From the IMG/VR virus record IMGVR_UViG_2778261300_000004, positions 1 through 21,891 of that record: a DNA stretch of 21,891 nucleotides; one strand, 5' to 3'. Source of the DNA: a virus (taxonomy: Duplodnaviria; Heunggongvirae; Uroviricota; Caudoviricetes). Below are positions 1,143 through 21,891 of this stretch, piece after piece; position 1 is the stretch's first letter; each line of letters starts with the position of its first letter. The notes under the pieces are model-generated. The model worked only from the letters and a program-made list of their open reading frames with translations, searched no databases and was not told the DNA's origin. The position numbers were made by a program, and so were the translations under genes.

Positions 1143-1290
1143 CATTCATAGTGCAGGGATTAAAATCATTCCCACTCAATTATTTACGACAATCATAACC
1201 AATTGAGTGATAACATTTTTCCAAAACCAAATTTTTCCCGTACCGTTTTATATACCGTCACCGAAAATCAGTACCATGAAAAATGCCATG

Positions 1291-2695: not shown

Positions 2696-3086
2696 TGTCT
2701 TTTCTCCCCGGAATTAACTCACGTGGATTATCTGAACGATGGTAGAGCCATATACCAATACGTACAGCGACAATCGCCGATACGAATGCTCCTGCAGAAA
2801 AGACGATCCCTTTCTCGAAAGAGTCCTGTGTGATGGTAGGGATCAGGCTGGCTATGCCGATAAGAATCGATGCTGCTGGTTTGTAAAAGAGAAGGCCGCA
2901 AAGAAAGCTGAGAATAGACAGGAGCACCCGGCGGCGGATCGGATACTCGACAGCAGAGGTAACAAAAATCACCGCTCCTGACAAAGCACCGAGCACCACC
3001 TCTGGCGGAACGCCTACGATAACCGCAGCAAGAGAACTCATACTAAGCCACTGATTTAAAGCCCCATCTGTTAGCTGAGCTGACAT
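2682..3086 (-). CDS. Membrane protein with about four predicted TM segments, first gene of the lysis cassette (holin family or lysis accessory)
   Basis: ATG 3086 preceded by GGTGG; 134 aa with four hydrophobic stretches; stop overlaps the start of the next small ORF. Confidence 0.45.
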   Translation of the reverse strand: MSAQLTDGALNQWLSMSSLAAVIVGVPPEVVLGALSGAVIFVTSAVEYPIRRRVLLSILSFLCGLLFYKPAASILIGIASLIPTITQDSFEKGIVFSAGAFVSAIVAVRIGIWLYHRSDNPRELIPGRKDNGNS

Positions 3087-3213
3087 AAAAACCACCGTTT
3101 AATGTGCATAAGACCCTCCTTAGTTGGTGAGTTTATCATACACAATAAACCATATATGGATTAAAGTTAATCAAGCAAAAGACTACCTCCCCAGGAGGTG
3201 GTTTAGGGATAAC

Positions 3214-3242
3214 AATAAAAAGATGGCGCATTGAGCGCCATC
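3214..3242 (-). terminator. Rho-independent terminator after the acyltransferase gene
   Basis: Hairpin gatggcgc / loop / gcgccatc followed on the minus strand by TTTTTA, immediately past the acyltransferase stop; a second weaker hairpin (acctcc/ggaggt) follows. Confidence 0.55.
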
Positions 3243-3245
3243 ATA

Positions 3246-4382
3246 TTAATTATGTTTGTTTGCTGCAATGTTAATAAAATACCTTTCAAAAAAATGGAAG
3301 GTTAAACATGACACAACACAAAGAAATATAAAGACAATAGTTAGCTGAAGATAAAAAATACCACCACTCATAGGAAGGTTGTTTTCTTTCATTACTTTAA
3401 AAGCGACATAAAAAATCACCCCCTGAAGTAGATATATACTGTAACTAGCCTCTCCAAGCCTTATAAATCCCTTGGTTCTAAATAGACCAAATAGATCGGC
3501 ACCTGAGCATACAGCAAAGAAACCTATCGCTGAAACAAATATGAGCTTTGTGCTAAGAGTGCCTGGTGAAAGTATAATAATGCTTAATATTGATGCAACC
3601 AACAAAATTTCTGATTGCAATTTTGTTATTTTCACCAGCAATGTTATTTCTTTCACCAACATACCAAAACAAAAAGCCGCCCATAAGTTTGCTTTGGCAT
3701 CTGGGAAAAATGATGGTACAAAATACATGGATAAAAAAGTAATGGCTGAGATGAACTCTAACGATTTTTCTCTAAATAAGTAAAGCAAAGGAAGAATGAA
3801 ATAAAACCCCCACTCCCACACAAGAGTCCATGTAACTCCAGCAGTTACATATCTTGAGTTAATCATCCCGTTTATATCTGGTCTTATATTCGTAAACCCA
3901 CAGTCAAACCAATACAAATAGTTCTGATACTTCTGAATAAAATCAGATGGAAGCCCTGTATAATACAATATTACAACTATAGCCAAAAGTGATGACAACC
4001 AAGCCATTGGCAAGATTCTAAACAGCCTTCCCTTATACATTGAAATCCAGTCAACACGCTCTGAGTCTCTTATTTTCCCCCAAAATAAAAAAGCAGTAAT
4101 CATGAAGAAAAAATAAACCCCAATATTTCCTATATAGTACATAAATGATGATGTGAACCACCATTTATTATTTATGGTAAAATTCAAAAAAAAGTCCATA
4201 TGGTCAAAGACGACCATTGATGCAAGTATATATCTTACACCTGTTAATTGCATATTTCTATGCAGCTTCACGCCTTTATCCATAAATGAGAATAAAGGCA
4301 TGGAAAATATTAAAGAAACAAATAATATAGAACCAAAAACCCATATTGCTAAATATATGCTATTCTGCATGATTGACACCAT
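3246..4382 (-). CDS. Integral-membrane acyltransferase family 3 (O-antigen acetyltransferase-like) moron
   Basis: 378 aa, roughly ten hydrophobic segments, strongly AT-rich relative to neighbours; acyltransferase-3-like N-terminal motif (LTGVRYILASMVVFDHM) and FFFMITAF; own terminator; immediately after the tailspike. Confidence 0.65.
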   Translation of the reverse strand: MVSIMQNSIYLAIWVFGSILFVSLIFSMPLFSFMDKGVKLHRNMQLTGVRYILASMVVFDHMDFFLNFTINNKWWFTSSFMYYIGNIGVYFFFMITAFLFWGKIRDSERVDWISMYKGRLFRILPMAWLSSLLAIVVILYYTGLPSDFIQKYQNYLYWFDCGFTNIRPDINGMINSRYVTAGVTWTLVWEWGFYFILPLLYLFREKSLEFISAITFLSMYFVPSFFPDAKANLWAAFCFGMLVKEITLLVKITKLQSEILLVASILSIIILSPGTLSTKLIFVSAIGFFAVCSGADLFGLFRTKGFIRLGEASYSIYLLQGVIFYVAFKVMKENNLPMSGGIFYLQLTIVFIFLCVVSCLTFHFFERYFINIAANKHN

Positions 4383-4453
4383 TTTAAATATTTATATTTA
4401 AATTATCACACATAAATAAATATAACAATAGTGCCAATCACATCAGTTATTGA

Positions 4454-6925
4454 TTAAACCACACTTAACCAACTTGAACCATTCGCAACAACTGGGCCAA
4501 CTCCACCAGCAAGACTGGTATTTGTGTTGTAACAGTGACTCCCCCTAACCGCAGTTGCGTTACTAACATCCGCAAAAATACCAAACCCTTTAATCGCCCA
4601 CGTGACCCCTGAAACCGGTGTAGATGGTATAGCTGAGTTTCCATACTGCATATGCCCACTTATATTTACAGAGCCAGTTGTTGTGGTGAAAACTTCACCC
4701 GTTTTACTTGATACGACATTACCGCCGCAAATAACAGAATAGCCACTAACCAGACTTGTTAATTTGTCTGGCCTGTTGAAAAATCCACCGATAAACTCAA
4801 ACGAGGGAGTGGTATTGTCGTAGTTAACACCAGTACTTATAAAGCTATAACCATTAGATTGGGTTAATTTGTCGAAGATAACTTTCTCTACTTTACCACT
4901 AGACTTTCTGATCACCGCCTGCCCGGAAACCAAATCAATATTCCCCGAAACAATAACGGTGTTTATCTGCCCACGGGTGATACGAACTCCGGCTGCGTCC
5001 GACACACTGGTAGCAAGTAAGGTTTTATCGAAATTAACATTAAGATTGTCTATGCGACTATTGTCGGCACCAGCACCATCACCCCCTACCTCCAGAAAAT
5101 ATGCGACATCACGAGGGCACCGACATTCCAGATTGTAGACACGAACTGCTGATGAGCCAGCCGTCCCAGTGGTTACCGACACTACAGGCACAACTGCTGC
5201 CGAGTAGTTAGCCGAGATAACGCCGATTACAGCGTTATCGACGGTAACAGTACCAGTCCCTACTGTTTTAAATTCAATGGTTCTGTAGCCAGCGCCAGCA
5301 ATTCCACCGACATTGTCGATATTCAGTGTTTTCACGTTGGTTTGTGACAGATTTGGTCCATCTGTCCACACCCTGATTACACTATGCTGGTAGCTACCAT
5401 AAACACCATCTATGCTCAGGTGGCGAACAGGTGTTGTGCTGTTTCCTGCAACCTTTACTGCACATAAAGAATTAATGCCATAAATGCCCTTAACGTCGAT
5501 GTGATTAAACGTTCCGCGCAACCCTAAATCGTAAGCAAGGTAATCCCCTCCGGTCATTGCAAACATGTCATCGCCAGTCGTACCGTACAGATCCCTTACG
5601 TAGGCATAATCAATAGGTGGCTGTAGATGAAGTCCATCAGAGTTGTTATTAAAACGAAGCCCTTGAGCATCAAGATATTGAACGTTGGCTACAAGGTAAG
5701 AATATTTTCTTGCACCTTTAATTTCCAGTCCACCACCTAATTTAACCCGCACTGCTGATGCAATGCAGATGCAATGCATTTCCATCCCATTCGAGGTGCC
5801 TCCCGTAGAATAGTTGTAGTCAACGGTCCCACCTCCCCATATCCCAATATAATCTGAGCGGTTACCAAGATCGGATGTGTTAGAAGCAAAACCTCCCGAG
5901 ACTGTCCTGTTTGACAGAACATATTCCCATTTCTCACTTACAAATACCGGCCTCAGATTGCCAGACGCGCCTGAAACCGTAACGCCGGATTTAATTTCGA
6001 TGTCGGTGTTATTAGGGACTATGATTGGCCCATTGACAAAAATAGTACCCTGATCTGCAAACACAATTCTCGTAATCGTGGACTTACCAGACAGATCGTT
6101 CAGCATGTTCTGCAAATTTGTAGAGTTAACGGTGGCACTATTTGTTGGTAAGACACCATAATCACTTACATAATAAATCCTATCTAATTTGTCTTTTACT
6201 GTCTGTAAAATCGCAAATGGTCCCTTATTTTTATATCCTGTTATTTTTGCACCATTGTTTGCTAACTCAATTAGAACATCTGAAGCCGAGCCTGATTCTG
6301 GCAAAACGGCAATTGGTCTCCCTACATCATTAAAAGCAAGAATTTTATTCGCTCTCTCTTCATTTGATGGTATCTGATCAACATAACTTTCAGGAACTCT
6401 TAGCGTCCTTTTGAAAAGGTTGTCGACATAATAGGCGACACTGTCAACATAATTTTTTGTTGCCGCATCCTGTGGATCTCGTGGGTCTCTAAGATTACGG
6501 ATATAGTTGTTTAGCGCGTCGTACCAGTTCGCGATGCTTGATGGCTTACGCAGCGCAAGGCTAAACAAACTGCGAACCTGCTGAATCAACATCGTTAGCT
6601 TATCAAACGCATCCTCATGCACCTCAGCAAAAAACTTACCCTGATTGCGCAGATCAGTTTCCTGTGTAACCGGTAGCTCTCGTGATATAGAAATCCGATA
6701 ACCGTTAGCCAACGCCTTCGACAGAATTACATTACCGCCGTTGTACCCTCCCGCACCAGTGACTGCGTAATCAGTATCAAGAGCCAGCACAGCGATATTT
6801 TCATCAAGGTCAACCACCTGTACTACCAGATCAGATTCCTGGAAAATCCTAAAGGTATAAGGGAATGAAGTCGTAACACCGTTACCTGTGTATTCGTTGT
6901 GGTCAACTTCTGTTGATACCGTCAT
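4454..6925 (-). CDS. Tailspike / receptor-binding protein, likely beta-helix glycanase
   Basis: ATG 6925 with GGAG RBS (track start is an upstream TTG); N-terminal ~150 aa (MTVSTEVDHNEYTGNGVTTSFPYTF...QETDLRNQGKFFAEVHEDAFDKL) matches the conserved tail fibre/tailspike N-domain as recalled; G/S/T/N/V-rich remainder. Confidence 0.7.
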   Translation of the reverse strand: MTVSTEVDHNEYTGNGVTTSFPYTFRIFQESDLVVQVVDLDENIAVLALDTDYAVTGAGGYNGGNVILSKALANGYRISISRELPVTQETDLRNQGKFFAEVHEDAFDKLTMLIQQVRSLFSLALRKPSSIANWYDALNNYIRNLRDPRDPQDAATKNYVDSVAYYVDNLFKRTLRVPESYVDQIPSNEERANKILAFNDVGRPIAVLPESGSASDVLIELANNGAKITGYKNKGPFAILQTVKDKLDRIYYVSDYGVLPTNSATVNSTNLQNMLNDLSGKSTITRIVFADQGTIFVNGPIIVPNNTDIEIKSGVTVSGASGNLRPVFVSEKWEYVLSNRTVSGGFASNTSDLGNRSDYIGIWGGGTVDYNYSTGGTSNGMEMHCICIASAVRVKLGGGLEIKGARKYSYLVANVQYLDAQGLRFNNNSDGLHLQPPIDYAYVRDLYGTTGDDMFAMTGGDYLAYDLGLRGTFNHIDVKGIYGINSLCAVKVAGNSTTPVRHLSIDGVYGSYQHSVIRVWTDGPNLSQTNVKTLNIDNVGGIAGAGYRTIEFKTVGTGTVTVDNAVIGVISANYSAAVVPVVSVTTGTAGSSAVRVYNLECRCPRDVAYFLEVGGDGAGADNSRIDNLNVNFDKTLLATSVSDAAGVRITRGQINTVIVSGNIDLVSGQAVIRKSSGKVEKVIFDKLTQSNGYSFISTGVNYDNTTPSFEFIGGFFNRPDKLTSLVSGYSVICGGNVVSSKTGEVFTTTTGSVNISGHMQYGNSAIPSTPVSGVTWAIKGFGIFADVSNATAVRGSHCYNTNTSLAGGVGPVVANGSSWLSVV

Positions 6926-7028
6926 GTTCAATCTCCGGATAGTCGCAGCACCCGTTGCGCCGCATACCCGGTTATTTTATTACCTTAAAAACCACATATG
7001 GATAGATAACCCATAAATACGAACAGAT

Positions 7029-9835: not shown

Positions 9836-10090
9836 TTAATGCCGCTTCACCATGTCAGAAAACTCAAGGCGGAGATCAGCATCTTTAGGCATCGGAATAC
9901 CTTTCGCGTCATCAGTACCTTTACGAGCCGCCGCGCCAGCAAGAATTGTCTGCGCAGCGGTTTCAGGAGACACGGAAACATCCGGATTAAACCAGTTTTT
10001 TTCTGCCAAAATACCACCTGGCTTATCCATCAGTATCCCGGCAACGGCAGCAGATGGAGCGTTGGCACTGATCTGCTGTAGTGCTGACAT
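9836..10090 (-). CDS. Short ORF, probably the C-terminal remnant of a truncated upstream virion gene
   Basis: 84 aa from ATG 10090; stop 12 nt before the 750-aa gene start; nothing phage-structural lies upstream of it, only the tRNA island. Confidence 0.3.
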   Translation of the reverse strand: MSALQQISANAPSAAVAGILMDKPGGILAEKNWFNPDVSVSPETAAQTILAGAAARKGTDDAKGIPMPKDADLRLEFSDMVKRH

Positions 10091-10343
10091 ATACACCTGC
10101 CCACCACCAGTGCTCTGCCTGATGGTAGCGGTCTGGATACGTTTAAGGGGCACCCTCCCTTGCTCGGGCAAACGAACCAGGTAGCCGGAATGTGCAAGTC
10201 GAGCGGTTTTATTCCGCGCACGGGGATTCACCATCCCGGCGATTCGGTGTGACACCTCGGAAGAGACGAGGGTGCAACGATGAGAGCATTTATGGAGCCG
10301 CGACAAAGTGTGGTGCCTTAACAGGCTAAGTGCTCTCAGCGTT

Positions 10344-10420
10344 GTGGCATTAGCTCAGTTGGACAGAGCAACCGCCTTCTAAGCGGTTGGTCGCAGGTTC
10401 GAATCCTGCATGCCACGCCA
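10344..10420 (+). tRNA. tRNA-Arg, anticodon UCU (reads AGA/AGG)
   Basis: Cloverleaf folded by hand: 7-bp acceptor stem GTGGCAT/ATGCCAC, D-arm GCTC..GAGC, anticodon stem ACCGC/GCGGT with loop CTTCTAA, T-arm GCAGG TTCGAAT CCTGC, discriminator G and encoded CCA. Confidence 0.9.
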
Positions 10421-10583: not shown

Positions 10584-10608
10584 GCCCACTTCAGTGGGCT
10601 TTTTTTTC
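10584..10608 (+). terminator. Rho-independent terminator
   Basis: gcccac / ttca / gtgggc followed by T8. Confidence 0.7.
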
Positions 10609-10620
10609 TAGTGACTACTG

Positions 10621-10637
10621 ATTACCTTATGGGTAAT
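10621..10637. promoter_or_regulatory. Operator-like inverted repeat A-TTACC-N5-GGTAA-T in the promoter region of the AT-rich gene
   Basis: attaccttatgggtaat, perfect arms; overlaps a candidate -10 TAATAT (10634-10639) about 30 bp upstream of ATG 10669. Confidence 0.5.
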
Positions 10638-10668
10638 ATGCTGCAAACAAATAACACAAGGCCGTGAC

Positions 10669-11487
10669 ATGCTTGACTTCATCCGTGACATTTACTCCTC
10701 TTTCCGCCAAGCATCTCTTGAGCGGGTGAAAAGCCCGTTCCTTGGGGCATTTGTTTTTTCCTGGCTTTGCTTTAATTGGCAGATGTTAGCAATTCTATTT
10801 TTTAGTTCTAAGGATATTGAAAAGCGCCTTGCTATTATTAATGGCTCTTTCGGCATCGTCAGCTTTTTAATTGCGCCAATATGCACTACAGCATTGATAG
10901 TTATCCTTTTACCGCAAATTAATAAATTAATTACAATAATACAAGATAAACCTAACTCAGACACAATTGAAATGAGCCTTGCATCTAAAATAAAGATCGC
11001 CGAACTGCAGCAACTATTAGCAGAAAATGAAGCAAGAAAGAAACTTGCTGATAAAAAAGAAGAACGCTTCATTGAAGAGAATATTATTTCAATAAAAAAA
11101 GACCATGAAAAAGCAATAGATAACCTTAAAGACAAAGAAAGTAAAATCTCAAATCTCACGGACACAATAACTGAACTTCAGAGCAAACTGGTTAAAGCTG
11201 AGGCCACTCTCAAAGTTGAACAGGAGTCAAGATCCCAAGTGCAGAATGAATTGATTATTGAAAAAGAGAACAAGCGGAAATTAGAAGACAACATTCTGCA
11301 CCTTAATTTAAGTTTAAAAAAAAACCAATCAGAATTGGCCATTGCAAAAGAAGCCTATGATAATACCTTGATGGCTTATAATGAACTTAACACAACATTA
11401 AAAAAAGCAGAAAGCTCAATAATAAACTTCAACGCTAACTTTCCTTTTTTAACTGACATAAATAACAGCACCCCAAATACATACTAA
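10669..11487 (+). CDS. AT-rich moron: protein with two N-terminal TM helices and a long coiled coil (candidate exclusion, abortive-infection or host-takeover factor)
   Basis: 272 aa; two N-terminal hydrophobic segments then a K/E/L/N-rich heptad-like region; composition much more AT-rich than flanking phage genes; opposite strand to neighbours; own promoter-like and terminator-like signals. Confidence 0.55.
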   Translation: MLDFIRDIYSSFRQASLERVKSPFLGAFVFSWLCFNWQMLAILFFSSKDIEKRLAIINGSFGIVSFLIAPICTTALIVILLPQINKLITIIQDKPNSDTIEMSLASKIKIAELQQLLAENEARKKLADKKEERFIEENIISIKKDHEKAIDNLKDKESKISNLTDTITELQSKLVKAEATLKVEQESRSQVQNELIIEKENKRKLEDNILHLNLSLKKNQSELAIAKEAYDNTLMAYNELNTTLKKAESSIINFNANFPFLTDINNSTPNTY

Positions 11488-11582
11488 AAAAAAAATAAAA
11501 ATGCATGGGAGCATTTAGTTAGTTTAAATTTAAGTCTAAAGGAGAAAATACAAAAATAAATAACCAATCCACTATGGCATAT

Positions 11583-13052
11583 TTACTCATACGGGTCATA
11601 ATCTATTATAGCCTTACCCTGCTGCTGGCGCGGATCATTAAGTTTTTTTGTGACCGGAAAAGCAAACGTCAGCAGTAGCGCATCGCCTTTACCCGGCGAA
11701 CGCCCAAGCCGCTCCTTGATATCTTCCTTCGGTTCGATAACGATTTTACCGTCCACGCGAACTTTGTACTCTGCCGCCGACAGGTCGTCCGCTGTTTCCT
11801 GGTCATCCAGCATGCCGCCCAGCCTCAGCCATGTCTTGCATGAGTTGAACATCTCCCCACGCTTGTTAAGCATCTGCGGGTCAGTGGACGCACCGCCGAA
11901 CGGAACAAGTTGCCATGTACGTCCCCAGCCATCACCGATTGACTTCAGACCAGTTCCGTAACCGAAGTCGATGAACACTGCGTCAGCCTGGTACTGGTCT
12001 TCAAAGTCAGCGATATGCTTCGCCATAATCAGATCGTCAGTGGTCTTGTTGCCAGTCCACAGCACCTTACTGTGCAGCCCCTGCCGCAGGTATATCACAG
12101 CGTCATCAACGCCGGAGTATGCCGGGTCAACGCCGATTATCACCGGTGCATGTGCCACCTGCGCAGCAGTTACCACCCGTTTCATTGCCTCGTCAGTAAG
12201 ACCGGTAGGGATAAACTGCAATTCAGATGCATCAGGGAATATGCCGCGCACACGGATTTTAACGAAGTCGCTGTCTTCCCCGTAGTCATCAACCCATTTC
12301 TGCAATTGCTGCTTGTTAGTACCTTCCACCGTCCGGCTGTCAATCTGCGCAGTTTTCCAGCGGTGTTTATATTTGCGGAAACATTCACGGAAACGTCCGG
12401 TATTACGCGTCGGGTTTCCGAACGCCACCCAGATAATCTCAGTGTCTTCGTCCGTAAGCGCACCCTCAGCAACTTCCCACACCAGATCCGCAATGTTCGA
12501 CGCTTCATCGAATACCACGATGATGCGTTTGCGCTCGTTGTGTAGTCCGGCGAATGCCTCAGTGTTGTGCTCAGACCAGGGGATTGCGTCAGCTCGCCAC
12601 CGCTTGTCGTGCCCAGGATCATTGCTGTACATCGCAGTAGCGGTACAGGTAAACCAGTCTTTCGTGATAGCAAGGTTCGACCACTTGATAATTTCCGGCC
12701 AGGTCTTCGTTCGTAGCTGGTTGTCGGTGTTGGCGGTCACCACGACCTTACAATCCTCGCAAGTGGACATGCCCCAGTTGATCAGCATTGAGATGAGTGC
12801 TGATTTACCAATACCGTGACCCGAAGCACGTGCCAGCATAAGCGGCTGATAGCGCGTCTCGGGATTCTGCAGGTGATCACGTATCTCTCGGAACGCATCG
12901 GCCTGCCACTGACGTGGGCCGGAAGCATGTGCCAGTTCAGTCCCCTCTTCCCCCCACGGGAACGCATAGAGGGCATAGCCAAGCGGATCGTGAGTGAACC
13001 CTGCAATATCCTCGATCAACTGCTCTTCAGGAGATAACGCTGCATCTGTCAC
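11583..13052 (-). CDS. terL: Terminase large subunit
   Basis: 489 aa; Walker A-like SGHGIGKS; GTG start overlaps the terS stop (GTGA). Confidence 0.8.
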   Translation of the reverse strand: MTDAALSPEEQLIEDIAGFTHDPLGYALYAFPWGEEGTELAHASGPRQWQADAFREIRDHLQNPETRYQPLMLARASGHGIGKSALISMLINWGMSTCEDCKVVVTANTDNQLRTKTWPEIIKWSNLAITKDWFTCTATAMYSNDPGHDKRWRADAIPWSEHNTEAFAGLHNERKRIIVVFDEASNIADLVWEVAEGALTDEDTEIIWVAFGNPTRNTGRFRECFRKYKHRWKTAQIDSRTVEGTNKQQLQKWVDDYGEDSDFVKIRVRGIFPDASELQFIPTGLTDEAMKRVVTAAQVAHAPVIIGVDPAYSGVDDAVIYLRQGLHSKVLWTGNKTTDDLIMAKHIADFEDQYQADAVFIDFGYGTGLKSIGDGWGRTWQLVPFGGASTDPQMLNKRGEMFNSCKTWLRLGGMLDDQETADDLSAAEYKVRVDGKIVIEPKEDIKERLGRSPGKGDALLLTFAFPVTKKLNDPRQQQGKAIIDYDPYE

Positions 13053-14763: not shown

Positions 14764-15276
14764 TCACTCTCCTTTGATGCGAATGCCAGTAGCGCGGATT
14801 GCATCGATGACTTCAGAAACTTTGTATGCCATTACCGTTTGGTAATCATCGTGAAAATCTGTTCGATGAAGCATGCTGCTACGTTCCGGGAGCAGTATTT
14901 CCCGCGCTTCCAGTTCTGCAATGCGCTTACCTCCATCCGCGATTACTCCATCGTAATACTCACGCTGCTCGTTGAGTTTTGATTTTGCTGCTTCAAGCTC
15001 AACACGCAGTTTCCCTACCGTTAGCGCAATTTCCTCGTTCTCCTGGTCGCGGCGTTTGATGTATTGCTGGTTTCTTTCCCGTTCATCCAGCAGCGCCAGC
15101 ACGGTTTCTGGTCCGGTCAGAAATTTGAAGGCGTTGAGCGCATCAATATCCACACCGTAATCTTTAAGTTCCTGTTCACTTAACAAATCATCATCAACTG
15201 GCAACATTAACAGGCGTTCCATTGCTGGAGTTGCACGTTCTGCCGCCTCACGCAGTACCTGATAGTCAATTGTCAT
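14764..15276 (-). CDS. Acidic coiled-coil protein (Ea22-like?)
   Basis: ATG 15276 with GGGTGG RBS; stop and next start nearly abut. Confidence 0.45.
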   Translation of the reverse strand: MTIDYQVLREAAERATPAMERLLMLPVDDDLLSEQELKDYGVDIDALNAFKFLTGPETVLALLDERERNQQYIKRRDQENEEIALTVGKLRVELEAAKSKLNEQREYYDGVIADGGKRIAELEAREILLPERSSMLHRTDFHDDYQTVMAYKVSEVIDAIRATGIRIKGE

Positions 15277-15917
15277 TCTCGCCACCCTTCACAGTTGTAA
15301 TCACTACAGCCTTCAAAATCATATGGGCTGTACTGCCAGGTTATTTTTCCGCAATGCGGACAATTCCAACGCACCTTCCCGCTTCGCGACTTCTTTCTTC
15401 TGTTCTGCTCTTTCAACCAGTCAGGCATGACCAAACCTGCGCCCTGAACCATTGTTCTGCGGTTAAATTTATTGATATTGAACGTCCGGCGCTTTGCTGA
15501 ATCAGCAATGGAAAATGGCAACCAAACTATTCCTGGTTCGTTTTTGTTGGCGACGCTAAAGATGGTCGCTTTACTGAAGTCATCTGTTGGCAATCCACCG
15601 TGTTGAAGCCAGTAAACATCGTTGCCGTTCCAGCTACCTTTTTTGTAGGCCACATACGCAGTGCAATCTGGCTCAATCAGGTTTTCTGTAGGGATGTACT
15701 GGCAATCAACGTGCCACACAGCCATTGCATCCACGCTATCAGCGCAAACAGGCTGATCGATATCTCGACCACAATTCCAGGCTTTTTGGGCTTCTTCCAG
15801 CGTGTAAACATGAGCGCGATCGATATTAGAACTGTAACCATTGCCGTTATGGCAATGGAATGAAGCGTTATTACCCACAGTTTCACGCAAGCACATCATG
15901 TAAAAGCGGTTATTCAC
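15273..15917 (-). CDS. Hypothetical phage protein with C-terminal Cys cluster
   Basis: GTG start overlapping the upstream stop (GTGA); C-terminal CPHCG...C...C motif. Confidence 0.45.
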   Translation of the reverse strand: MNNRFYMMCLRETVGNNASFHCHNGNGYSSNIDRAHVYTLEEAQKAWNCGRDIDQPVCADSVDAMAVWHVDCQYIPTENLIEPDCTAYVAYKKGSWNGNDVYWLQHGGLPTDDFSKATIFSVANKNEPGIVWLPFSIADSAKRRTFNINKFNRRTMVQGAGLVMPDWLKEQNRRKKSRSGKVRWNCPHCGKITWQYSPYDFEGCSDYNCEGWRE

Positions 15918-16477
15918 TGGATGACTCCTTTACGAAGCTGTTCAGCGATATCTTCGAGAACGCCATCAGAGAATGAGCGGTCAAAATCTCCTTCCGGCAC
16001 ATTAGCCATAAAATCAGTAGAGGTAAGAATCATCCGGGCAATATCCTCGGCGTTCTTCGCAGTATCATCAATAAAACCAGCTTTCCAGGCAGCCAACATT
16101 CTGTTCGCCACAAAGTAAGCCCCTTCCTTGCGTGCTTCAGTCTTCATTTCATCCAAGAAAGCATCGGTCGCAGGAGTGGTTTTTTGTGGTGATATGGCGA
16201 TACGAATTGTTTCAAGAGCTGGATCTGTTTCCACTGTTGGCACCTTGATAAAACCAAGCTGCACGCCATTCATAATGAACGTGCGGCGATCCTCACATAT
16301 CGCCTTCAGTCTCGCATTCTCCGCAGCCAGCACCGAAAACTTCTCGTGTGCCAACTTAACAGCCGCATCAGCCTGCTTAATTGACTCAATCGCTTTCTGC
16401 TGGTCTTCGGCCAGCGCATTAGCACGCTCCAGTTGCACTTCCAGTTGCGTTGCCAAATCGCTGATTCCATGGTGCAC
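15914..16477 (-). CDS. Hypothetical protein with N-terminal coiled coil; true start uncertain
   Basis: Track ORF from GTG 16477; N-terminal region overlaps a second frame that carries a small zinc-ribbon-like ORF. Confidence 0.4.
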   Translation of the reverse strand: MHHGISDLATQLEVQLERANALAEDQQKAIESIKQADAAVKLAHEKFSVLAAENARLKAICEDRRTFIMNGVQLGFIKVPTVETDPALETIRIAISPQKTTPATDAFLDEMKTEARKEGAYFVANRMLAAWKAGFIDDTAKNAEDIARMILTSTDFMANVPEGDFDRSFSDGVLEDIAEQLRKGVIQ

Positions 16478-16596
16478 TCAACACAGTGTCCGTTGTAAAC
16501 CCAGCGTTCACTGTCATGTCCGTGCTTACATGGTTTTCCGGTGTAGTAGCGTTTAAGTCCGCGCTTTGCGGCATCAATACGTGTAATGATTTCCAT
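16471..16596 (-). CDS. Small zinc-ribbon-like ORF; 3' end unresolved
   Basis: ATG 16596 (MEIITRIDAAKRGLKRYYTGKPCKHGHDSERWVYNGHCVEC); its frame has no stop until 16306 and becomes Arg/Trp-rich where it overlaps the coiled-coil frame. Confidence 0.25.
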
Positions 16597-16705
16597 GGTA
16601 AGTACTGTTATTAGTATTGGGATTACGGTTATTTTGTGCTGACACAAAAAAAAGATCAACCAGATTTGGTTTTTTATTACCTTTGAGGTGCGAATAGATA
16701 TGAAA

Positions 16706-16725
16706 AGACCGCCGGATGGCGGTCT
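16706..16725 (-). terminator. Hairpin terminator about 20 nt after the Cro-like gene
   Basis: agaccgcc / ggat / ggcggtct followed on the minus strand by TTTTCATATCT. Confidence 0.4.
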
Positions 16726-16746
16726 ACAGAGGGTTGTGGCTGGATA

Positions 16747-16977
16747 TCATGAGTAGAAGAAGTATGCCAGTTCTGCTTTTGAGCGCAGCCATTGTCTTGT
16801 TTTACAGGCTTTAAAAAGCCCATTCATCAATACCTTACCTGGCATTTTGCGCTTACCTGTTAAGTGAGTCTGGATATAGTGACTCGTCGTTCCGGCTTCC
16901 TGTGCGAAGGCTTCACGCTCATCCGGAGTAAGTGCAAGCCAGTGCTTTTTGAAATCGAAATGTCCGTTATCGCTCAT
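16747..16977 (-). CDS. Cro-like small HTH regulator (YdaS/Cro-type)
   Basis: 76 aa, ATG 16977; HTH-like segment TTSHYIQTHLTGKRKMP; divergent from the repressor gene across an operator-bearing intergenic region. Confidence 0.5.
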   Translation of the reverse strand: MSDNGHFDFKKHWLALTPDEREAFAQEAGTTSHYIQTHLTGKRKMPGKVLMNGLFKACKTRQWLRSKAELAYFFYS

Positions 16978-17012
16978 AGCTATTGCCTGATATTTATTTC
17001 AGATAATAAATA

Positions 17013-17077
17013 TTCACCCATAAGGTAACAAAAATCAAGGATAGTTACCCATGGGGTGCATTTACCTGTTGGGTAAT
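17013..17077. promoter_or_regulatory. Immunity-region operator cluster: three 17-bp sites of the form (A/T)-T(T/C)ACC-N5-GGTAA-(T/C)
   Basis: 17013-17029 ttcacccataaggtaac; 17044-17060 gttacccatggggtgca (weaker right arm); 17061-17077 tttacctgttgggtaat; all between the Cro-like and repressor starts. Confidence 0.5.
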
Positions 17078-17131
17078 ATTGCTTTAAATTGAATCATCTA
17101 CTGATTCATATATGAGGCGATTTTCCAGAAA

Positions 17132-17716
17132 ATGAAAAGTATCCAGGACGTCCGCAGGCAAAATCTCAACGACTTGATCGACCGTGAATTCAATGGTGTT
17201 CAGACGCGGATGGCAGAAAAACTTGGAACTCAGGCAAATCTGGTAAACCGCTGGGCTCTTGGCAAGAAGGTTATCGGCGATCAGGTTGCGCGAAAAATTG
17301 AAGCTGCCGCCAATAAACCCCGTAACTGGCTTGATATCGATCGCTCTCTTTCTCAGGAAGGTTTTCAGCCTGTCGGCCCAAGCGACATTGGTCAGCTGGC
17401 GGCTCACAACCTGGAGCGCTGGATGAGCGAAAGCCGCGACCTTTCAACACAGGGAAAACTTCACCGCGCATCCGGCGTAGCCCAGGTGACAATCAGCCGC
17501 CTGTTAAACAATGAGGTCAGCGTTTCCATTTCCACCCTGGAGAATGTTGCATCCGCATTCGGGCGTCATGGCTATGAATTACTGATTCACCCGCACGACC
17601 CTGCGACCATCAACTATGACCGCTCGCGCTACGCATTGTTACCCGAAACCGAGAAAGCAAAGATCGAAAGTTACATTGAATTTGTCATCAACCAGAACGA
17701 AAAAAACAAACAATAA
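17132..17716 (+). CDS. Prophage repressor candidate with two HTH (XRE-type) domains and no recognisable peptidase/autocleavage domain
   Basis: 194 aa; HTH-like segments around residues 25-45 and 110-130; no S24-like Ser/Lys motif region seen by eye; followed by a strong terminator. Confidence 0.55.
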   Translation: MKSIQDVRRQNLNDLIDREFNGVQTRMAEKLGTQANLVNRWALGKKVIGDQVARKIEAAANKPRNWLDIDRSLSQEGFQPVGPSDIGQLAAHNLERWMSESRDLSTQGKLHRASGVAQVTISRLLNNEVSVSISTLENVASAFGRHGYELLIHPHDPATINYDRSRYALLPETEKAKIESYIEFVINQNEKNKQ

Positions 17717-17736
17717 AATCATATTTTTCAGTAAGT

Positions 17737-17762
17737 AAGCCGCCTTCTGGCGGCTTTTTTTA
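17737..17762 (+). terminator. Rho-independent terminator after the repressor gene
   Basis: aagccgcc / ttct / ggcggctt followed by T7. Confidence 0.7.
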
Positions 17763-17773
17763 TTGTCTATACG

Positions 17774-17790
17774 ATTACCTGACGGGTAAT
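17774..17790. promoter_or_regulatory. Operator site (perfect arms) upstream of the early-operon promoter
   Basis: attacctgacgggtaat. Confidence 0.5.
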
Positions 17791-17808
17791 TTTTTTAACT
17801 CATATCTA

Positions 17809-17836
17809 TTGACATCAAACCAAATACGCATAATCA
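17809..17836 (+). promoter_or_regulatory. Candidate sigma70 promoter of the + strand early operon
   Basis: Perfect -35 TTGACA (17809-17814); -10 candidate TAATCA 16 bp downstream; bracketed by two operator sites. Confidence 0.4.
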
Positions 17837-17852
17837 TTACCTCAACGGTAAC
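17836..17852. promoter_or_regulatory. Operator site overlapping the -10 / start region
   Basis: attacctcaacggtaac. Confidence 0.5.
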
Positions 17853-17870
17853 AGACCGAGGTAACAAATT

Positions 17871-18022
17871 ATGCAGTGGAAAATCATCAACGGTTGGTAC
17901 TGCGTTACTGCATGCGGATTCATGAGCTGGAAGTTCCGCACCTTACAGGAAGGCATTAAGTGGGCTTTCGTCAGCAAAGAAGCTCGCGATGTGGCCAACG
18001 ATAACGAGATATGGGAGGGCTG
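17871..18022 (+). CDS. 49-aa Trp/Cys-containing small protein, first gene of the operator-controlled operon (below the ORF-track cutoff)
   Basis: ATG 17871 with GAGG 8 nt upstream; MQWKIINGWYCVTACGFMSWKFRTLQEGIKWAFVSKEARDVANDNEIWEG. Confidence 0.35.
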
Positions 18023-18025
18023 ATA

Positions 18026-18325
18026 ATGAACGTTAATCAGCAGAAAAATCTTCAAAAAATCATGCTGGCATTCGACAAGGACTACCGCCTGTCAGAACAG
18101 CTATATGACCGACAAGTTGAACTGATTGAGAGTATCCGGCTTCATCAACTGGCCTCAACTTTCGACGTTGTAACAGGCAAAGGTGTTCGCCAGGAAGTGC
18201 TGGAAGCAGCTAAAGACAGCCCTGAGTTCGAAGAACTGATGGATTCCTACCGGCGCGAGGCAATGGCAATTATCGCCCGCTGGGATCTGGCTGATCAGAT
18301 TGATGGGCAGAGGGACGCGGCATGA
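18026..18325 (+). CDS. Hypothetical early protein
   Basis: ATG 18026 with GGAGGG RBS (track start 18011 is in-frame upstream); stop overlaps the next start (ATGA). Confidence 0.45.
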   Translation: MNVNQQKNLQKIMLAFDKDYRLSEQLYDRQVELIESIRLHQLASTFDVVTGKGVRQEVLEAAKDSPEFEELMDSYRREAMAIIARWDLADQIDGQRDAA

Positions 18326-18528
18326 AACCAACGCTCCTCTCATTGCTGCGAGGTGGAAAACACAGCATCCGAGATATGGCAAAGATTCTTGGTATCTCAA
18401 AATCGAAGGTTTCTTGGTTCATCGCTGAGCTTGAACGTCGCAAATGGGTAAAGGTGACCAGGTGCGCAATATATTTCCACGATGGAACCCGTTCCAACAA
18501 GCAGAACGAATACAAGGTTAAGTTATGA
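18322..18528 (+). CDS. Small basic HTH-like protein
   Basis: 68 aa; segment IRDMAKILGISKSKVSWFIAELERRKW resembles a winged-helix/HTH; coupled to both neighbours. Confidence 0.45.
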   Translation: MKPTLLSLLRGGKHSIRDMAKILGISKSKVSWFIAELERRKWVKVTRCAIYFHDGTRSNKQNEYKVKL

Positions 18529-19346
18529 ATACTGGCATCTATTTCGATATCAGCAACGAGGATTACCACGCCGGTGACGGCGTGAGCAAGTCGCAGCTAG
18601 ATATGGTGGCTAAGAACCCTGCCCTCCTGAAATGGGTTCAGGCAGCACCAGAAGACGAAGAGAAAAAGTCTGCACTGGATATGGGAACCGCATTGCACTG
18701 TCTGCTTCTGGAGCCTAGAGAGTTCGACAAACGCTTCATTGTTTCACCGAAATTCGATCGTCGGACGAAACAAGGTAAAGCTGACGAAGAGGCATTTCTT
18801 CGTGATGTGGCGGATATGGGGATTTCGGTACTTGATGCAGAGCAGTGGCGGAAACTGGAGCTGATGCGTGATAGCGCAATGGCTCACCCGGCGGCACGCT
18901 GGATGTTGGAAGCACCTGGTTACTGCGAAGCATCAATGTACTGGAACGATGAAGAGACTGGTGAGTTGTGCCGCATTCGTCCAGACAAATGGCTGAACGA
19001 GCACAACGTGATCGTCGACGTGAAAAAGGTTGCAGATATGGACCGTTTTGCACGCCACATCGAGGAATTCCGCTACCACGTGCAGGACGCAATGTACCGC
19101 GAAGGCGCAATGAGGGTTACTGGTCAGCCGCATGGTTTTTTCTTTCTTGCCGTGAGCGAAAGCATTGATTGTGGTCGGTATCCGGTACGCGTGTTCGAGC
19201 TGGATGCGCCGGATGTCGATGCCGGGCACGCTCTGTTCCGCCGGGATCTGAATACCTATCACGAATGCCGCATCAACGATGAATGGGGCGGAGTGGAAAT
19301 TATTAAACGCCCTGACTGGGCACGTAAACAGGATATGTATGTATGA
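18525..19346 (+). CDS. PD-(D/E)XK exonuclease of the phage recombination module (RecE-C-terminal-like)
   Basis: Motifs consistent with the PD-(D/E)XK fold: IRPD, IVDVKK (D-x-K), QDAMY; stop overlaps the recombinase start. Confidence 0.6.
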   Translation: MNTGIYFDISNEDYHAGDGVSKSQLDMVAKNPALLKWVQAAPEDEEKKSALDMGTALHCLLLEPREFDKRFIVSPKFDRRTKQGKADEEAFLRDVADMGISVLDAEQWRKLELMRDSAMAHPAARWMLEAPGYCEASMYWNDEETGELCRIRPDKWLNEHNVIVDVKKVADMDRFARHIEEFRYHVQDAMYREGAMRVTGQPHGFFFLAVSESIDCGRYPVRVFELDAPDVDAGHALFRRDLNTYHECRINDEWGGVEIIKRPDWARKQDMYV

Positions 19347-20224
19347 GCAATGATATCGCAATCACATCACAACCAGGCGCAACTGTAGGCACTGCTGCGG
19401 CAATCTTCAGCCCCGAGGGCATGAATCAACTGGTGCGTTTCGCGGAGTTGATGTCACAAAGCAAAGCGACTGTACCGAAACATCTTGAAGGCAAACCTGC
19501 CGATTGCCTGGCGGTGACCATGCAGGCGACACAGTGGGGAATGAACCCGTTCGCCGTGGCGCAGAAAACGCATGTGGTAAACGGAACGTTAGGCTACGAA
19601 GCACAGTTGGTAAACGCGGTCGTATCCTCTTCCAGCCTGCTGGCGACACGCCTGAATTATCGCTGGAGCGGTGACTGGTCGAATGTTAACGGCAAAACAG
19701 ATAAATCACCGAATCTGACGGTAACTGTGTCAGCAGTTCTTAAAGGAGAAGCAGAACCACGTGAGCTTACCATCAGTATGGCGCAAGCCGGAGTGCGTAA
19801 CTCTCCATTGTGGGAACAGGATCCGCGCCAGCAGCTTGCCTATCTTTGCACGAAACGATGGGCTCGCCTGCACGCTCCTGATGTACTTCTCGGTGTTTAC
19901 ACCCCTGACGAATTACAGGAAACGGCACCGCGCGTTGAACGAGACATTACTCCGCAAACAACTACGGCTGCGGGAATGAATAGTCTGATCAACGCTAAAA
20001 CAGTGAAAAAGCCTGATGAGCAAACGCGTAAAGCGGATAGCCGTGATCCAGAAGAAATGCTGATGGCCTTTACCAGCGCAGCGATGAATTACAGCACTGT
20101 CTCCGAACTGGATAAGGCTTACAAATACATTGCACAAAAACTTTCAGATGATGACGAACTGCTGGCAAAAGCCACCGACGTTTACAGCGTTCGTCGGGAA
20201 GAATTAAACGAAACATCTATGTAA
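19343..20224 (+). CDS. Single-strand annealing recombinase, Red-beta/RecT superfamily (Bet-like)
   Basis: Segments resembling lambda Bet as recalled (QWGMNPF..., ERDITPQ); paired with the exonuclease. Confidence 0.65.
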   Translation: MSNDIAITSQPGATVGTAAAIFSPEGMNQLVRFAELMSQSKATVPKHLEGKPADCLAVTMQATQWGMNPFAVAQKTHVVNGTLGYEAQLVNAVVSSSSLLATRLNYRWSGDWSNVNGKTDKSPNLTVTVSAVLKGEAEPRELTISMAQAGVRNSPLWEQDPRQQLAYLCTKRWARLHAPDVLLGVYTPDELQETAPRVERDITPQTTTAAGMNSLINAKTVKKPDEQTRKADSRDPEEMLMAFTSAAMNYSTVSELDKAYKYIAQKLSDDDELLAKATDVYSVRREELNETSM

Positions 20225-20273
20225 CCACCACCGCGGCGCCACGCGCGCCGCACTGCAACCAAGAGAGGTATTT

Positions 20274-20522
20274 ATGAAAGGTGCATTAGGTAAGAAGGAA
20301 CTCCTGGCGGTGGTGCCACTGTCATGGAGCACTATCGACCGTATGGAGCGCGCAGGGGAATTTCCTAAACGCTGGTACATCACCGATAAACGCTGCGCAT
20401 GGAACCGTGATGAAGTTGAGCGTTGGCTTGATGAACGTCAGGCAGCAAGCCCGGCAGAGTTCCAGGGTAAAAAGCCTCCTGTTCAGCGACGTGTATATCG
20501 TCCTGTGAGCAACGCTGCATGA
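20274..20522 (+). CDS. alpA: AlpA-family regulator / excisionase-like protein
   Basis: AGAGAGG RBS; ...STIDRMERAGEFPKRWYI... matches the AlpA signature (AGEFPK) as recalled; lies next to the integrase. Confidence 0.65.
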   Translation: MKGALGKKELLAVVPLSWSTIDRMERAGEFPKRWYITDKRCAWNRDEVERWLDERQAASPAEFQGKKPPVQRRVYRPVSNAA

Positions 20523-20631
20523 GTGTGCTGCTAAGACACTGGAGCAAATGGTCAGGATGGTACTTATTCCTGGCCTCTGTTTCAGCATGGCTTTATCTGC
20601 TGGCATTAATTTTCAGAGAGGGTTGGATTAA

Positions 20632-20931
20632 GTGAGAAAGTTAAGCCGACTTGAAAAATATCACATGAACAAGGTTTCAATGCGCAGCCCTTCAAAGGTT
20701 GTTTCCGTTACTCCTGCGGCGATAGAGATCGAAAAACGCGCGATTGAAAGAGAGAAAAAAGGGCAGTTCCGCATTGCCGCTCACCTTTGGCTTCAGTGTA
20801 TGGATGTTGCTTCTGGTGATGTTGAGCGTGCAAGGATCGCGGTTCGCAGGGACCAATGTATCACAAAAGGTAACGGCCTTCGCCGTGGCGACTATAGCGG
20901 AATAGGATGTTGTGGGGTGGTTTATGACTAA
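20632..20931 (+). CDS. PerC-like transcriptional activator (start uncertain; ATG 20665 is more likely than GTG 20632)
   Basis: ...AAHLWLQCMDVASGDVERARIAVRRDQC... resembles the PerC family pattern as recalled. Confidence 0.45.
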   Translation: MRKLSRLEKYHMNKVSMRSPSKVVSVTPAAIEIEKRAIEREKKGQFRIAAHLWLQCMDVASGDVERARIAVRRDQCITKGNGLRRGDYSGIGCCGVVYD

Positions 20932-20946
20932 GAAATACACACTAAT

Positions 20947-21891
20947 CTATGCAGATCCACCCTGGGTATTAGATAATGGCTTCCGGAAGTTGTAACGACC
21001 AGGAACCAGATATTCACTTCCACCAGCGCACATCTGCAACCCGACCAATATATCCTGTGCCTGTTTAGGCAGGTAAATAACGTGCGCCCGGCTTCCCTTC
21101 ATGCGGTCTGAAGGAATTGTCCATGTCCATTTTTTAAAATCTATTTCGTCCCACGTTGCATTGGTGAATTCGCCTTTACGAACCATAGTGATAAGCACCA
21201 GCTTTAAAGCCATTTTCATAGTGCCCATAGCACCAATGGCATCCAGCGTACGGAAGAACAGGCCAATTTCTTCTGGTGTCAGTGTTCGCTCTCGTGGTTT
21301 AAATATGGCGATAGACGAAGGTTTAATGTCAGCTGCAGGATTAAACAAACCATGACCACGGTCATTGGCGTGACGGTATACGCTGCTGATGATCTCCCTG
21401 GCCTGCACTGCTGTTGCCCGGCCACCGCGTTCGACAATCCGGTCACACAAATCACGAACCATCGATGTGGTAATTTCAACCATCATTTTGTTGCCAAGAA
21501 CCGGAAGTATGTCACGGTCGATCACCGCCTGCTTCATTGCGCGGGTACTTTCAGCCAGGATGACGTGTTTCATATAACTGTCGGTATGTACCGCAAACGT
21601 CTCGGCACCACGAATCTTTTTGATACCGTCACGTTTAGCCACAGCCGGCGACTGGCCTGCTTTAAGCAGCTTCTTTGCAGCAATCAGTTCTTCCCGCGCT
21701 TCTGCCAGGCTGATACCGTCACGCCCATACTGCCCGATTACCAGTGTTTCGCGGCGACCGTTGATACGGTAGTCATAGCGAAACGAGACCGTGCCTGACG
21801 TAAGCACAGCTACATACAGCCCGTCACGATCGGAGACCTTGTACAGTTTGTCCTGCGGCTTGAGGTTTTTTAATTTTGTATCGGTAAGCAC
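20947..21891 (-). CDS. int: Tyrosine integrase, P4-type; N-terminus runs off the window and the ORF ends before the catalytic C-terminal segment
   Basis: Arm-binding-like N-terminal region (LTDTKLKNLKPQDKLYKVSDRDGLY...) and core segment (LVLITMVRKGEF...HVIYLPKQAQDIL...SEYLVPGRY) present; ORF stops after ...FRKPLSNTQGGSA with no H-x-x-R / catalytic-Tyr region in any frame downstream. Confidence 0.7.
   Translation of the reverse strand: MLTDTKLKNLKPQDKLYKVSDRDGLYVAVLTSGTVSFRYDYRINGRRETLVIGQYGRDGISLAEAREELIAAKKLLKAGQSPAVAKRDGIKKIRGAETFAVHTDSYMKHVILAESTRAMKQAVIDRDILPVLGNKMMVEITTSMVRDLCDRIVERGGRATAVQAREIISSVYRHANDRGHGLFNPAADIKPSSIAIFKPRERTLTPEEIGLFFRTLDAIGAMGTMKMALKLVLITMVRKGEFTNATWDEIDFKKWTWTIPSDRMKGSRAHVIYLPKQAQDILVGLQMCAGGSEYLVPGRYNFRKPLSNTQGGSA

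What the first reader, a model, noticed from the sequence alone, without database searches (positions are those of the whole stretch)
20932..21891. Integrase ORF stops before its catalytic C-terminal segment
The in-window integrase has the N-terminal arm-binding and first core regions of P4-type tyrosine integrases, but ends at ...FRKPLSNTQGGSA. Related integrases continue for roughly 80-90 residues from that point, carrying the H-x-x-R box and catalytic tyrosine, and no frame downstream encodes such a segment. Only 15 bp separate this stop from the stop of the convergent PerC-like gene. The prophage is therefore probably locked in place.
Basis: partly seen in the sequence, partly recalled or inferred. 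Interest (0 to 1): 0.5.

Follow-up and report, generated by a model that had tools for sequence, protein, structure and literature searches.

The report
Deletion-truncated phiV10-type prophage integrase
A 1,128-bp deletion in a decayed phiV10-like prophage of E. coli has cut off the catalytic end of its integrase and removed two neighbouring genes, which is an ordinary case of a prophage remnant that can no longer cut itself out.

Summary
The minus-strand ORF 20947-21891 (314 aa) is the integrase of a phiV10/epsilon15-type (Uetakevirus) prophage inserted at the 3' end of guaA. Intact alleles are 416 aa and 99% identical over the shared part. Only residues 1-308 are native. The last six residues (TQGGSA) are read from the antisense strand of a methyltransferase gene stub.

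The cause is a clean 1,128-bp deletion with 2 bp of microhomology (AT, window 20968-20969). It removed int codons 309-416 (H335, R338, H361 and the catalytic Y370), the whole DUF1382 gene and codons 16-216 of the MT-A70 methyltransferase. R238 and K265 remain. No frame in the window encodes the missing C-terminus.

The exact truncated protein occurs on about five public contigs of different lengths, and the junction has no long repeat, so misassembly is unlikely. No complete E. coli genome (0 of 5,426) carries the junction.

Both 17-bp att cores survive. The element also has three further microhomology deletions (2.4, 11.2 and 2.3 kb) that removed the portal, capsid, tail and replication genes. 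It is therefore a dead, self-immobile remnant. "Locked in place" holds for self-excision, but excision by a related integrase supplied in trans is not excluded. This is known biology of low interest.

The parts
20947..21891 (-). Truncated integrase ORF of 314 codons plus stop. Codons 1-308 (window 20968-21891) are native phiV10-type Int. Codons 309-314 (20950-20967, TQGGSA) and the TAG stop (20947-20949) are read from the antisense of the methyltransferase stub.
   Evidence: 99% nucleotide identity to intact int of E. coli AR_0085 and 98% to phiV10. Pfam domains.
20968..20969 (.). Deletion junction J4. The dinucleotide AT is shared by both flanks (GGTAT versus GGCAT if one mismatch is allowed). 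1,128 bp present in intact relatives are missing here.
   Evidence: Query of 1,492 bp maps onto 2,620 bp in two pieces in relatives.
20924..20995 (+). Stub of the MT-A70 DNA methyltransferase gene. 15 native codons (MTKKYTLIYADPPWV, up to the DPPW motif) are followed by 8 codons read from int antisense and a stop. The intact protein is 216 aa.
20632..20931 (+). PerC-family transcriptional activator gene, intact. RefSeq annotates either the 300-bp or the 252-bp version. Its stop overlaps the methyltransferase start in the usual phiV10 arrangement.
20274..20522 (+). AlpA-family small DNA-binding protein gene (candidate excisionase/regulator), intact.
1164..1180 (+). 17-bp att core AATCATTCCCACTCAAT at the yfgI-side prophage end. 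The second copy lies at the 3' end of guaA just beyond the window (L003 5793-5809, reverse complement).
   Evidence: Identical to the published attP/attB core of phiV10, epsilon15 and vB_EcoP_ZX5 (PMC9782041).
9845..9848 (.). Deletion junction J1 (CTTC microhomology). About 2.4 kb of virion protein genes are missing relative to the intact prophage.
10126..10127 (.). Deletion junction J2 (TA microhomology). About 11.2 kb are missing, covering the portal, protease, major capsid, cement/staple, tail and internal virion protein genes.
16462..16465 (.). Deletion junction J3 (TGAT microhomology). About 2.3 kb are missing, covering the DnaT-like and P-like replication genes and their neighbours.

Best explanation
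The window holds a defective phiV10/epsilon15-type (Uetakevirus) prophage inserted between yfgI and guaA of E. coli. A single illegitimate, microhomology-mediated deletion of 1,128 bp fused codon 15 of the MT-A70 methyltransferase gene, in antisense, to codon 308 of the convergent integrase gene. It removed int codons 309-416, the whole DUF1382 gene and 201 of the 216 methyltransferase codons. The resulting 314-aa protein keeps the arm-binding domain, the core-binding domain, and the first Arg and the Lys of the active site. It lacks His-x-x-Arg, the second His and the nucleophilic Tyr, so it cannot cleave DNA. The element therefore cannot catalyse its own excision, although both att cores are intact. 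Shown here: the deletion, its borders, the lost residues, its presence in independent assemblies and the other three deletions. Inferred: loss of recombinase activity, from the established catalytic mechanism of tyrosine recombinases; loss of self-excision; and the deletion mechanism (replication slippage or end-joining at 2-4 bp microhomologies).
For: In the best-matching complete E. coli genomes listed, the 1,492-bp query maps onto 2,620 bp in two pieces, with MT-A70, DUF1382 and a 416-aa integrase lying between PerC and guaA; 367 of 5,426 genomes have a single place covering at least 80% of the query. Pairwise BLAST places the two flanks directly next to each other with a 2-bp overlap and no foreign sequence. 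The intact Int is 99% identical to the phiV10 integrase, and the gene order int-DUF1382-MTase-PerC-AlpA-RecT is that of phiV10. Alignment with lambda Int, whose residues R212, K235, H308, R311, H333 and Y342 were checked on the lambda sequence, places H335, R338, H361 and Y370 in the deleted part; the H-to-Y spacing of 9 is the same as in lambda. Pfam coverage of PF00589 drops from positions 3-170 to 3-101 of 172. The C-terminus is absent from all six frames. The exact 314-aa protein is on five contigs (4 by the count) falling in three length classes from 20 kb to 1 Mb, held in Logan and NCBI, one of them 100% identical to window 14947-21891. Both att cores are intact and equal the published core. 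Three more deletions have 2-4 bp microhomology.
Against: No functional data exist: loss of excision is inferred, not measured. Only the window and one 13-kb stretch of a related contig were seen, so a second phiV10-type integrase elsewhere in the genome that could act in trans cannot be excluded. Nor can relocation, rather than loss, of the 1,128 bp. The independent contigs may all derive from one clone, so they exclude a one-off assembly error but not a systematic one. That is improbable without a repeat at the junction.
Confidence: 0.93

Rival explanations
1. Assembly artefact: the genome really has the intact 2.6-kb PerC-MTase-DUF1382-int arrangement and the assembler collapsed it.
For: No complete E. 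coli genome (0 of 5,426) carries the junction. Three other junctions in the same element are equally private.
Against: The exact truncated protein occurs on about five contigs of different lengths (20 kb to 1 Mb) from Logan and NCBI assemblies, one of them 100% identical over 6.9 kb including junctions J3 and J4. The flanks share only 2 bp, or 4 of 5, so there is no repeat that an assembler could collapse.
Confidence: 0.03
2. The 314-aa protein is a retained, functional DNA-binding derivative. Its arm- and core-binding domains occupy att sites, for example to block integration of superinfecting phiV10-like phages or to regulate neighbouring genes. On this reading it is not a mere pseudogene.
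For: The ORF is uninterrupted over 308 native codons, with only 3 amino-acid changes from an intact allele. Both DNA-binding domains score as well as in the intact protein. Candidate arm-type sites (TACCGTCACC) and both cores persist.
Against: The allele is rare and apparently recent: 99% identical to intact alleles and absent from 5,426 complete genomes. An open frame therefore needs no selection to explain it. Half of the catalytic domain remains and would probably misfold. The same element carries three other random-looking deletions, which fits neutral decay.
Confidence: 0.03
3. Module exchange (mosaicism) rather than deletion: recombination with another phage replaced the int 3' end and its neighbours.
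For: Uetakevirus prophages at guaA are mosaic. Strain VE-V11-M has a Ser/Thr phosphatase gene in place of DUF1382 and a 418-aa Int.
Against: No sequence of foreign origin lies at the junction. Every base on each side matches the reference, and the flanks overlap by 2 bp.
Confidence: 0.01

Closest known systems
Integrase of Escherichia phage phiV10 (PhiV10p31) and of vB_EcoP_ZX5, O157 typing phages 9/10 and TL-2011b; more distantly epsilon15, SPN1S and Tyrion
   Same: 98-99% identical over residues 1-308 / nt 20968-21891. Same neighbours (PerC, AlpA, RecT), same 17-bp att core and same insertion site at the 3' end of guaA.
   Different: Lacks residues 309-416 (H-x-x-R, His, Tyr) and carries a 6-residue foreign tail. 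The adjacent DUF1382 and MT-A70 genes are deleted or truncated.
Bacteriophage P4 integrase / INT_P4 family (Arm-DNA-bind_3 + Phage_int_M + Phage_integrase)
   Same: Same three-domain architecture in the intact allele. About 30% identity to P4 Int, with Arg, Lys, HxxR, His and Tyr aligned.
   Different: In the window the catalytic domain stops at Pfam profile position 101 of 172.
'Grounded'/cryptic prophages of E. coli (e.g. DLP12, e14, Rac, CPZ-55, Qin) as reviewed in PMC6379469
   Same: A prophage that has lost its excision function through mutation of its recombinase gene and has been eroded further by internal deletions.
   Different: A young remnant. The retained sequence is still 97-99% identical to active phages, both att cores are intact, and this deletion allele is absent from 5,426 complete genomes.

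Membership tests
P4-type tyrosine integrase (INT_P4) | N-terminal arm-type DNA-binding domain (Pfam PF13356) | tested here: met
   Residues 2-87, E = 6.7e-20, 71 bits. Also matches solved CP4-like integrase arm domains 3ju0 and 3jtz (run with the intact allele).
P4-type tyrosine integrase (INT_P4) | Central core-binding domain (PF22022 / SAM-like) | tested here: met
   Residues 113-190, E = 2.2e-11.
P4-type tyrosine integrase (INT_P4) | Complete catalytic domain with the R-K-H-R-H-Y active site | tested here: not met
   Only R238 and K265 are present. H335, R338, H361 and Y370 lie in the deleted codons 309-416. PF00589 is covered over positions 3-101 of 172 only, against 3-170 in the intact allele. 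The ORF is a member by descent (a pseudogene), not a functional member.
phiV10/epsilon15-type (Uetakevirus) prophage at guaA | 17-bp att core attgagtgggaatgatt duplicated at both ends, one copy overlapping the guaA stop | tested here: met
   Window 1164-1180 and L003 5793-5809. The core sequence is as published (PMC9782041).
phiV10/epsilon15-type (Uetakevirus) prophage at guaA | Synteny of the lysogeny/early-left module int-DUF1382-MTase-PerC-AlpA-RecT | tested here: met
   The order is the same as in phiV10 and in intact prophages, apart from the 1,128 bp deleted.
phiV10/epsilon15-type (Uetakevirus) prophage at guaA | Complete set of virion and replication genes (a viable phage) | tested here: not met
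   About 17 kb is missing relative to the intact prophage L002: portal, protease, major capsid, tail and internal proteins, and the DnaT-like and P-like replication genes.
Grounded (excision-defective) prophage | Failure to excise because the recombinase or the att sites are mutated | not testable with these tools
   Recombinase inactivation is shown at sequence level. Actual absence of excision needs PCR or sequencing of attB/attP junctions.

The most novel reading that the evidence does not exclude
The truncated integrase keeps intact arm-binding and core-binding domains, and its cognate att cores and candidate arm sites are still present. It could be an expressed, catalytically dead att-site binder. 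Such a protein might interfere with integration or excision of incoming phiV10-like phages (a dominant-negative form of superinfection exclusion), or it might stabilise the remnant.
Probability: 0.03. Interest if true: 0.45.

Novelty: already known. Interest (0 to 1): 0.1.

Why it matters
It matters mainly for annotation. The gene should be called an integrase pseudogene, and the region a defective phiV10-type prophage remnant that cannot excise by itself. The stub at 20924-20995 should not be called a gene. The case is a clean, datable example of early prophage decay: four small-microhomology deletions in an element otherwise 97-99% identical to active phages. It could be used in surveys of how quickly and in what order prophages lose excision, replication and virion functions. 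It opens no new biological question.

Tried and rejected
(1) An exact-match scan of the 40-nt junction in genome contigs (one genome per species) found nothing. This is uninformative, because the E. coli representative genomes need not carry this lineage.

(2) Two sequence searches of the PDB with the catalytic half of the intact Int were swamped by spurious WD40-repeat hits to the segment NSLIDRTVKIINEDGEHIQDFTVHD. They did not print the lambda Int alignment. I fetched lambda and P4 int from the phage collection and aligned them instead.

(3) MAFFT misplaces the last block of lambda Int (Y342 against KAEY). The assignment of Y370 rests on the conserved His-to-Tyr spacing of 9 and on the P4-family motif VRA(V/A)Y. 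Either candidate Tyr lies in the deleted part, so the conclusion does not depend on the choice.

(4) I looked for complete genomes that share junctions J2 or J3 but have an intact int, in order to order the deletion events. There are none.

(5) The complete genome closest in the guaBA-xseA-der flank (VE-V11-M, 99.9%) carries a different, full-length prophage allele. It does not help to date the deletion.

(6) IS-mediated deletion was rejected: no IS sequence or terminal repeat lies at any junction.

(7) My first estimate of 1,123 bp for the deletion was wrong, because it ignored the BLAST overlap. The correct figure is 1,128 bp (2,620 - 1,492).

Full report
**1. The observation**

The minus-strand ORF 20947-21891 encodes 314 residues ending ...RYNFRKPLSNTQGGSA. 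The convergent PerC-family ORF (20632-20931, PF06069) stops 15 bp before the integrase stop codon. Pfam finds three domains in the 314-aa protein:
- the P4-type arm-binding domain (PF13356, residues 2-87);
- the central domain (PF22022, residues 113-190);
- only the first 101 of 172 profile positions of the catalytic Phage_integrase domain (residues 204-302, 31 bits).

**2. What intact relatives look like**

A megablast of window 20400-21891 against 5,426 complete E. coli genomes hit 550 genomes. In the best hits the 1,492-bp query is spread over 2,620 bp in two pieces. The annotated features under those matches are AlpA-family/HTH regulator, PerC, MT-A70 methyltransferase, DUF1382 protein and a tyrosine integrase.

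In strain AR_0085 (L001) the order is as follows:
- PerC (252 bp);
- MT-A70 methyltransferase (651 bp, whose start overlaps the PerC stop);
- DUF1382 (195 bp);
- a convergent integrase of 1,251 bp (416 aa);
- guaA, 193 bp beyond the integrase start.

The intact integrase is 99.0% identical to that of Escherichia phage phiV10 and 99.8% identical to that of vB_EcoP_ZX5. phiV10 has the same gene order: int (p31), DUF1382 (p32), DNA methyltransferase (p33), PerC-family activator (p34), AlpA (p36), RecE/T (p37).

**3. The lesion**

Pairwise BLAST shows that window 20400-20969 matches L001 3001-3570 and window 20965-21891 matches L001 4694-5620. Base-by-base comparison with L001 and L002 gives these borders:
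- The left reference matches through window 20969.
- The right reference matches from window 20968.
- The flanks share only AT (GGTAT versus GGCAT if one mismatch is allowed).
- No foreign base lies between the flanks.

The missing stretch is 1,128 bp (2,620 - 1,492). It comprised three things:
- codons 16-216 of the methyltransferase;
- the whole DUF1382 gene;
- codons 309-416 of int.

What remains of the methyltransferase is MTKKYTLIYADPPWV, which ends just after its DPPW motif. It now reads on into int antisense for 8 codons, giving a 23-codon stub at 20924-20995. Conversely, the integrase frame reads six codons (TQGGSA) and a TAG from the antisense of that stub.

**4. What the integrase lost**

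I aligned the truncated protein, the intact 416-aa allele, P4 Int and lambda Int. I verified lambda's catalytic residues (R212, K235, H308, R311, H333, Y342) on the lambda sequence itself. The result is:
- R238 (VRKGE) and K265 (RMKGS) are retained.
- H335 and R338 (HDMRR), H361 (LAHE) and Y370 (RAVY) lie beyond residue 308 and are gone.

The His-to-Tyr spacing (9) and the His-to-His spacing (26, against 25 in lambda) match lambda. MAFFT misplaced lambda's last block, but every candidate Tyr is in the deleted part.

The intact allele covers PF00589 positions 3-170 of 172 at 71 bits. tblastn of the 108 lost residues against the window finds nothing better than E = 0.9.

Tyrosine recombinases cleave DNA through the C-terminal Tyr, assisted by the RKHRH residues. 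This is established knowledge of the family. A protein lacking four of the six residues, including the nucleophile, cannot catalyse recombination. That step is an inference, not a measurement.

**5. Real deletion or artefact?**

The exact 314-aa sequence is recorded on five contigs (4 by the count) in three length classes from 20 kb to 1 Mb, held in Logan and NCBI assemblies. One of them (SRR29736265, L003) is 100% identical to window 14947-21891 and continues into guaA-guaB-xseA-yfgJ-der. With only 2 bp of shared sequence at the junction, there is no repeat that could be collapsed.

No complete E. coli genome has the junction in one piece (0 of 5,426), while 543 carry the two halves apart. 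The allele is therefore real, rare and probably recent.

**6. Context: the whole element is a remnant**

The window begins with the host genes yfgH and yfgI (1-1071). The 17-bp sequence AATCATTCCCACTCAAT occurs at window 1164-1180 and again across the guaA stop codon in L003. [quoted passage not shown] Both att cores are thus intact.

Intact prophages at this site are about 38 kb (L002). The copy in the window is about 20.7 kb. Besides the int deletion (J4), comparison with L002 and phiV10 shows three further clean deletions:

| Junction | Window position | Microhomology | Size | Genes lost |
|---|---|---|---|---|
| J1 | 9845-9848 | CTTC | 2,426 bp | virion protein genes |
| J2 | 10126-10127 | TA | 11,215 bp | portal, protease, major capsid, cement/staple, tail and internal virion proteins |
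| J3 | 16462-16465 | TGAT | 2,311 bp | DnaT-like and P-like replication genes |

Junctions J2 and J3 are likewise absent from all complete E. coli genomes. The retained DNA is mostly 97-99% identical to active phages. This is therefore a young element decaying by small-microhomology deletions.

**7. Mechanism and consequences**

Shown:
- one deletion event inactivated int and the methyltransferase and removed DUF1382;
- the repressor-side genes, AlpA, PerC, RecT and the exonuclease remain.

Inferred:
- The deletion arose by illegitimate recombination (slippage or end-joining at 2-4 bp microhomologies), like the other three.
- The element cannot excise by itself.
- Even if it were excised, it could neither replicate nor build particles.

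Because both att cores and the flanking arm regions persist, a phiV10-type integrase supplied in trans by a superinfecting or co-resident relative could in principle still excise it. A TACCGTCACC motif occurs once next to each core. "Locked in place" therefore holds only for autonomous excision.

**8. Comparison with known systems and novelty**

This fits the well-described category of cryptic or "grounded" prophages, in which mutation of the recombinase or the att sites fixes the element in the chromosome and further deletions erode it (PMC6379469). By descent the gene belongs to the phiV10/INT_P4 integrase family. Functionally it fails the defining active-site test and should be annotated as a pseudogene.

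Nothing here departs from known biology. The only less ordinary reading is a catalytically dead att-binding derivative with a role in superinfection interference. It is not excluded, but nothing beyond an open frame supports it, and the youth of the allele explains the open frame without selection.

**9. Verdict**

- Observation: confirmed.
- Interpretation: supported, with corrections. 108 residues are missing rather than 80-90. The cause is a 1,128-bp deletion that also removed two neighbouring genes. Excision in trans is not excluded. The element is defective in several other ways.
- Interest: low, about 0.1.
- Novelty: already known in kind.

Noticed in passing
window 9845-9848, 10126-10127, 16462-16465: Three further clean internal deletions (about 2.4, 11.2 and 2.3 kb) relative to intact phiV10-type prophages, each with 2-4 bp microhomology (CTTC, TA, TGAT). 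They removed portal, capsid, tail and replication genes. The ORF 9836-10306 (156 aa) spans J2 and ends just short of J1, so it is a fusion product. J2 and J3 are absent from all 5,426 complete E. coli genomes.
   Followed up: yes
window 10344-10420: A phage-borne tRNA-Arg (anticodon TCT) survives next to deletion J2. Intact relatives have the same tRNA (L002 27629-27705).
   Followed up: partly
window 10608-11652 (ORF 10669-11487, +, 272 aa): A segment of about 1 kb has no counterpart in L002 or phiV10, where a Gp49-family gene lies. Its 272-aa ORF has no Pfam match. It may be a moron or accessory gene of unknown function.
   Followed up: no
window 3170-6243 (ORF 3246-4382, -, 378 aa; C-terminal part of ORF 4454-6931, -, 825 aa): This stretch does not match the reference prophages. 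It holds an Acyl_transf_3 acyltransferase, at the position of the phiV10 O-acetyltransferase oac but a different allele, and the distal part of the tail-spike gene. This looks like a swapped serotype-conversion/receptor-binding module, and both ORFs are intact in the remnant.
   Followed up: partly
window 1253-1262; L003, 58 nt upstream of the int start: The decamer TACCGTCACC occurs once in the window, 73 bp inside the prophage from the att core at 1164-1180. It occurs once more between int and the guaA-side core. These are candidate arm-type Int binding sites, and both are still present.
   Followed up: partly
window 1164-3169: The att-proximal arm and the lysis cassette (Rz-like, GH19 endolysin, holins) are only about 88% identical to L002 and phiV10, whereas most of the remaining matched sequence is 93-99% identical. 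This part of the element has a different mosaic origin.
   Followed up: no
window 21889-21891 (window end): The window ends exactly on the annotated GTG start codon of int. The int promoter, the 193-bp int-guaA spacer and the second att core are therefore outside the window. They were recovered from contig L003.
   Followed up: yes
L007 (E. coli VE-V11-M, NZ_AP027978.1) 26000-28565: A related prophage at the same guaA site has a 418-aa integrase allele and a Ser/Thr protein phosphatase gene in place of DUF1382. This shows module exchange immediately downstream of int in this phage group.
   Followed up: no
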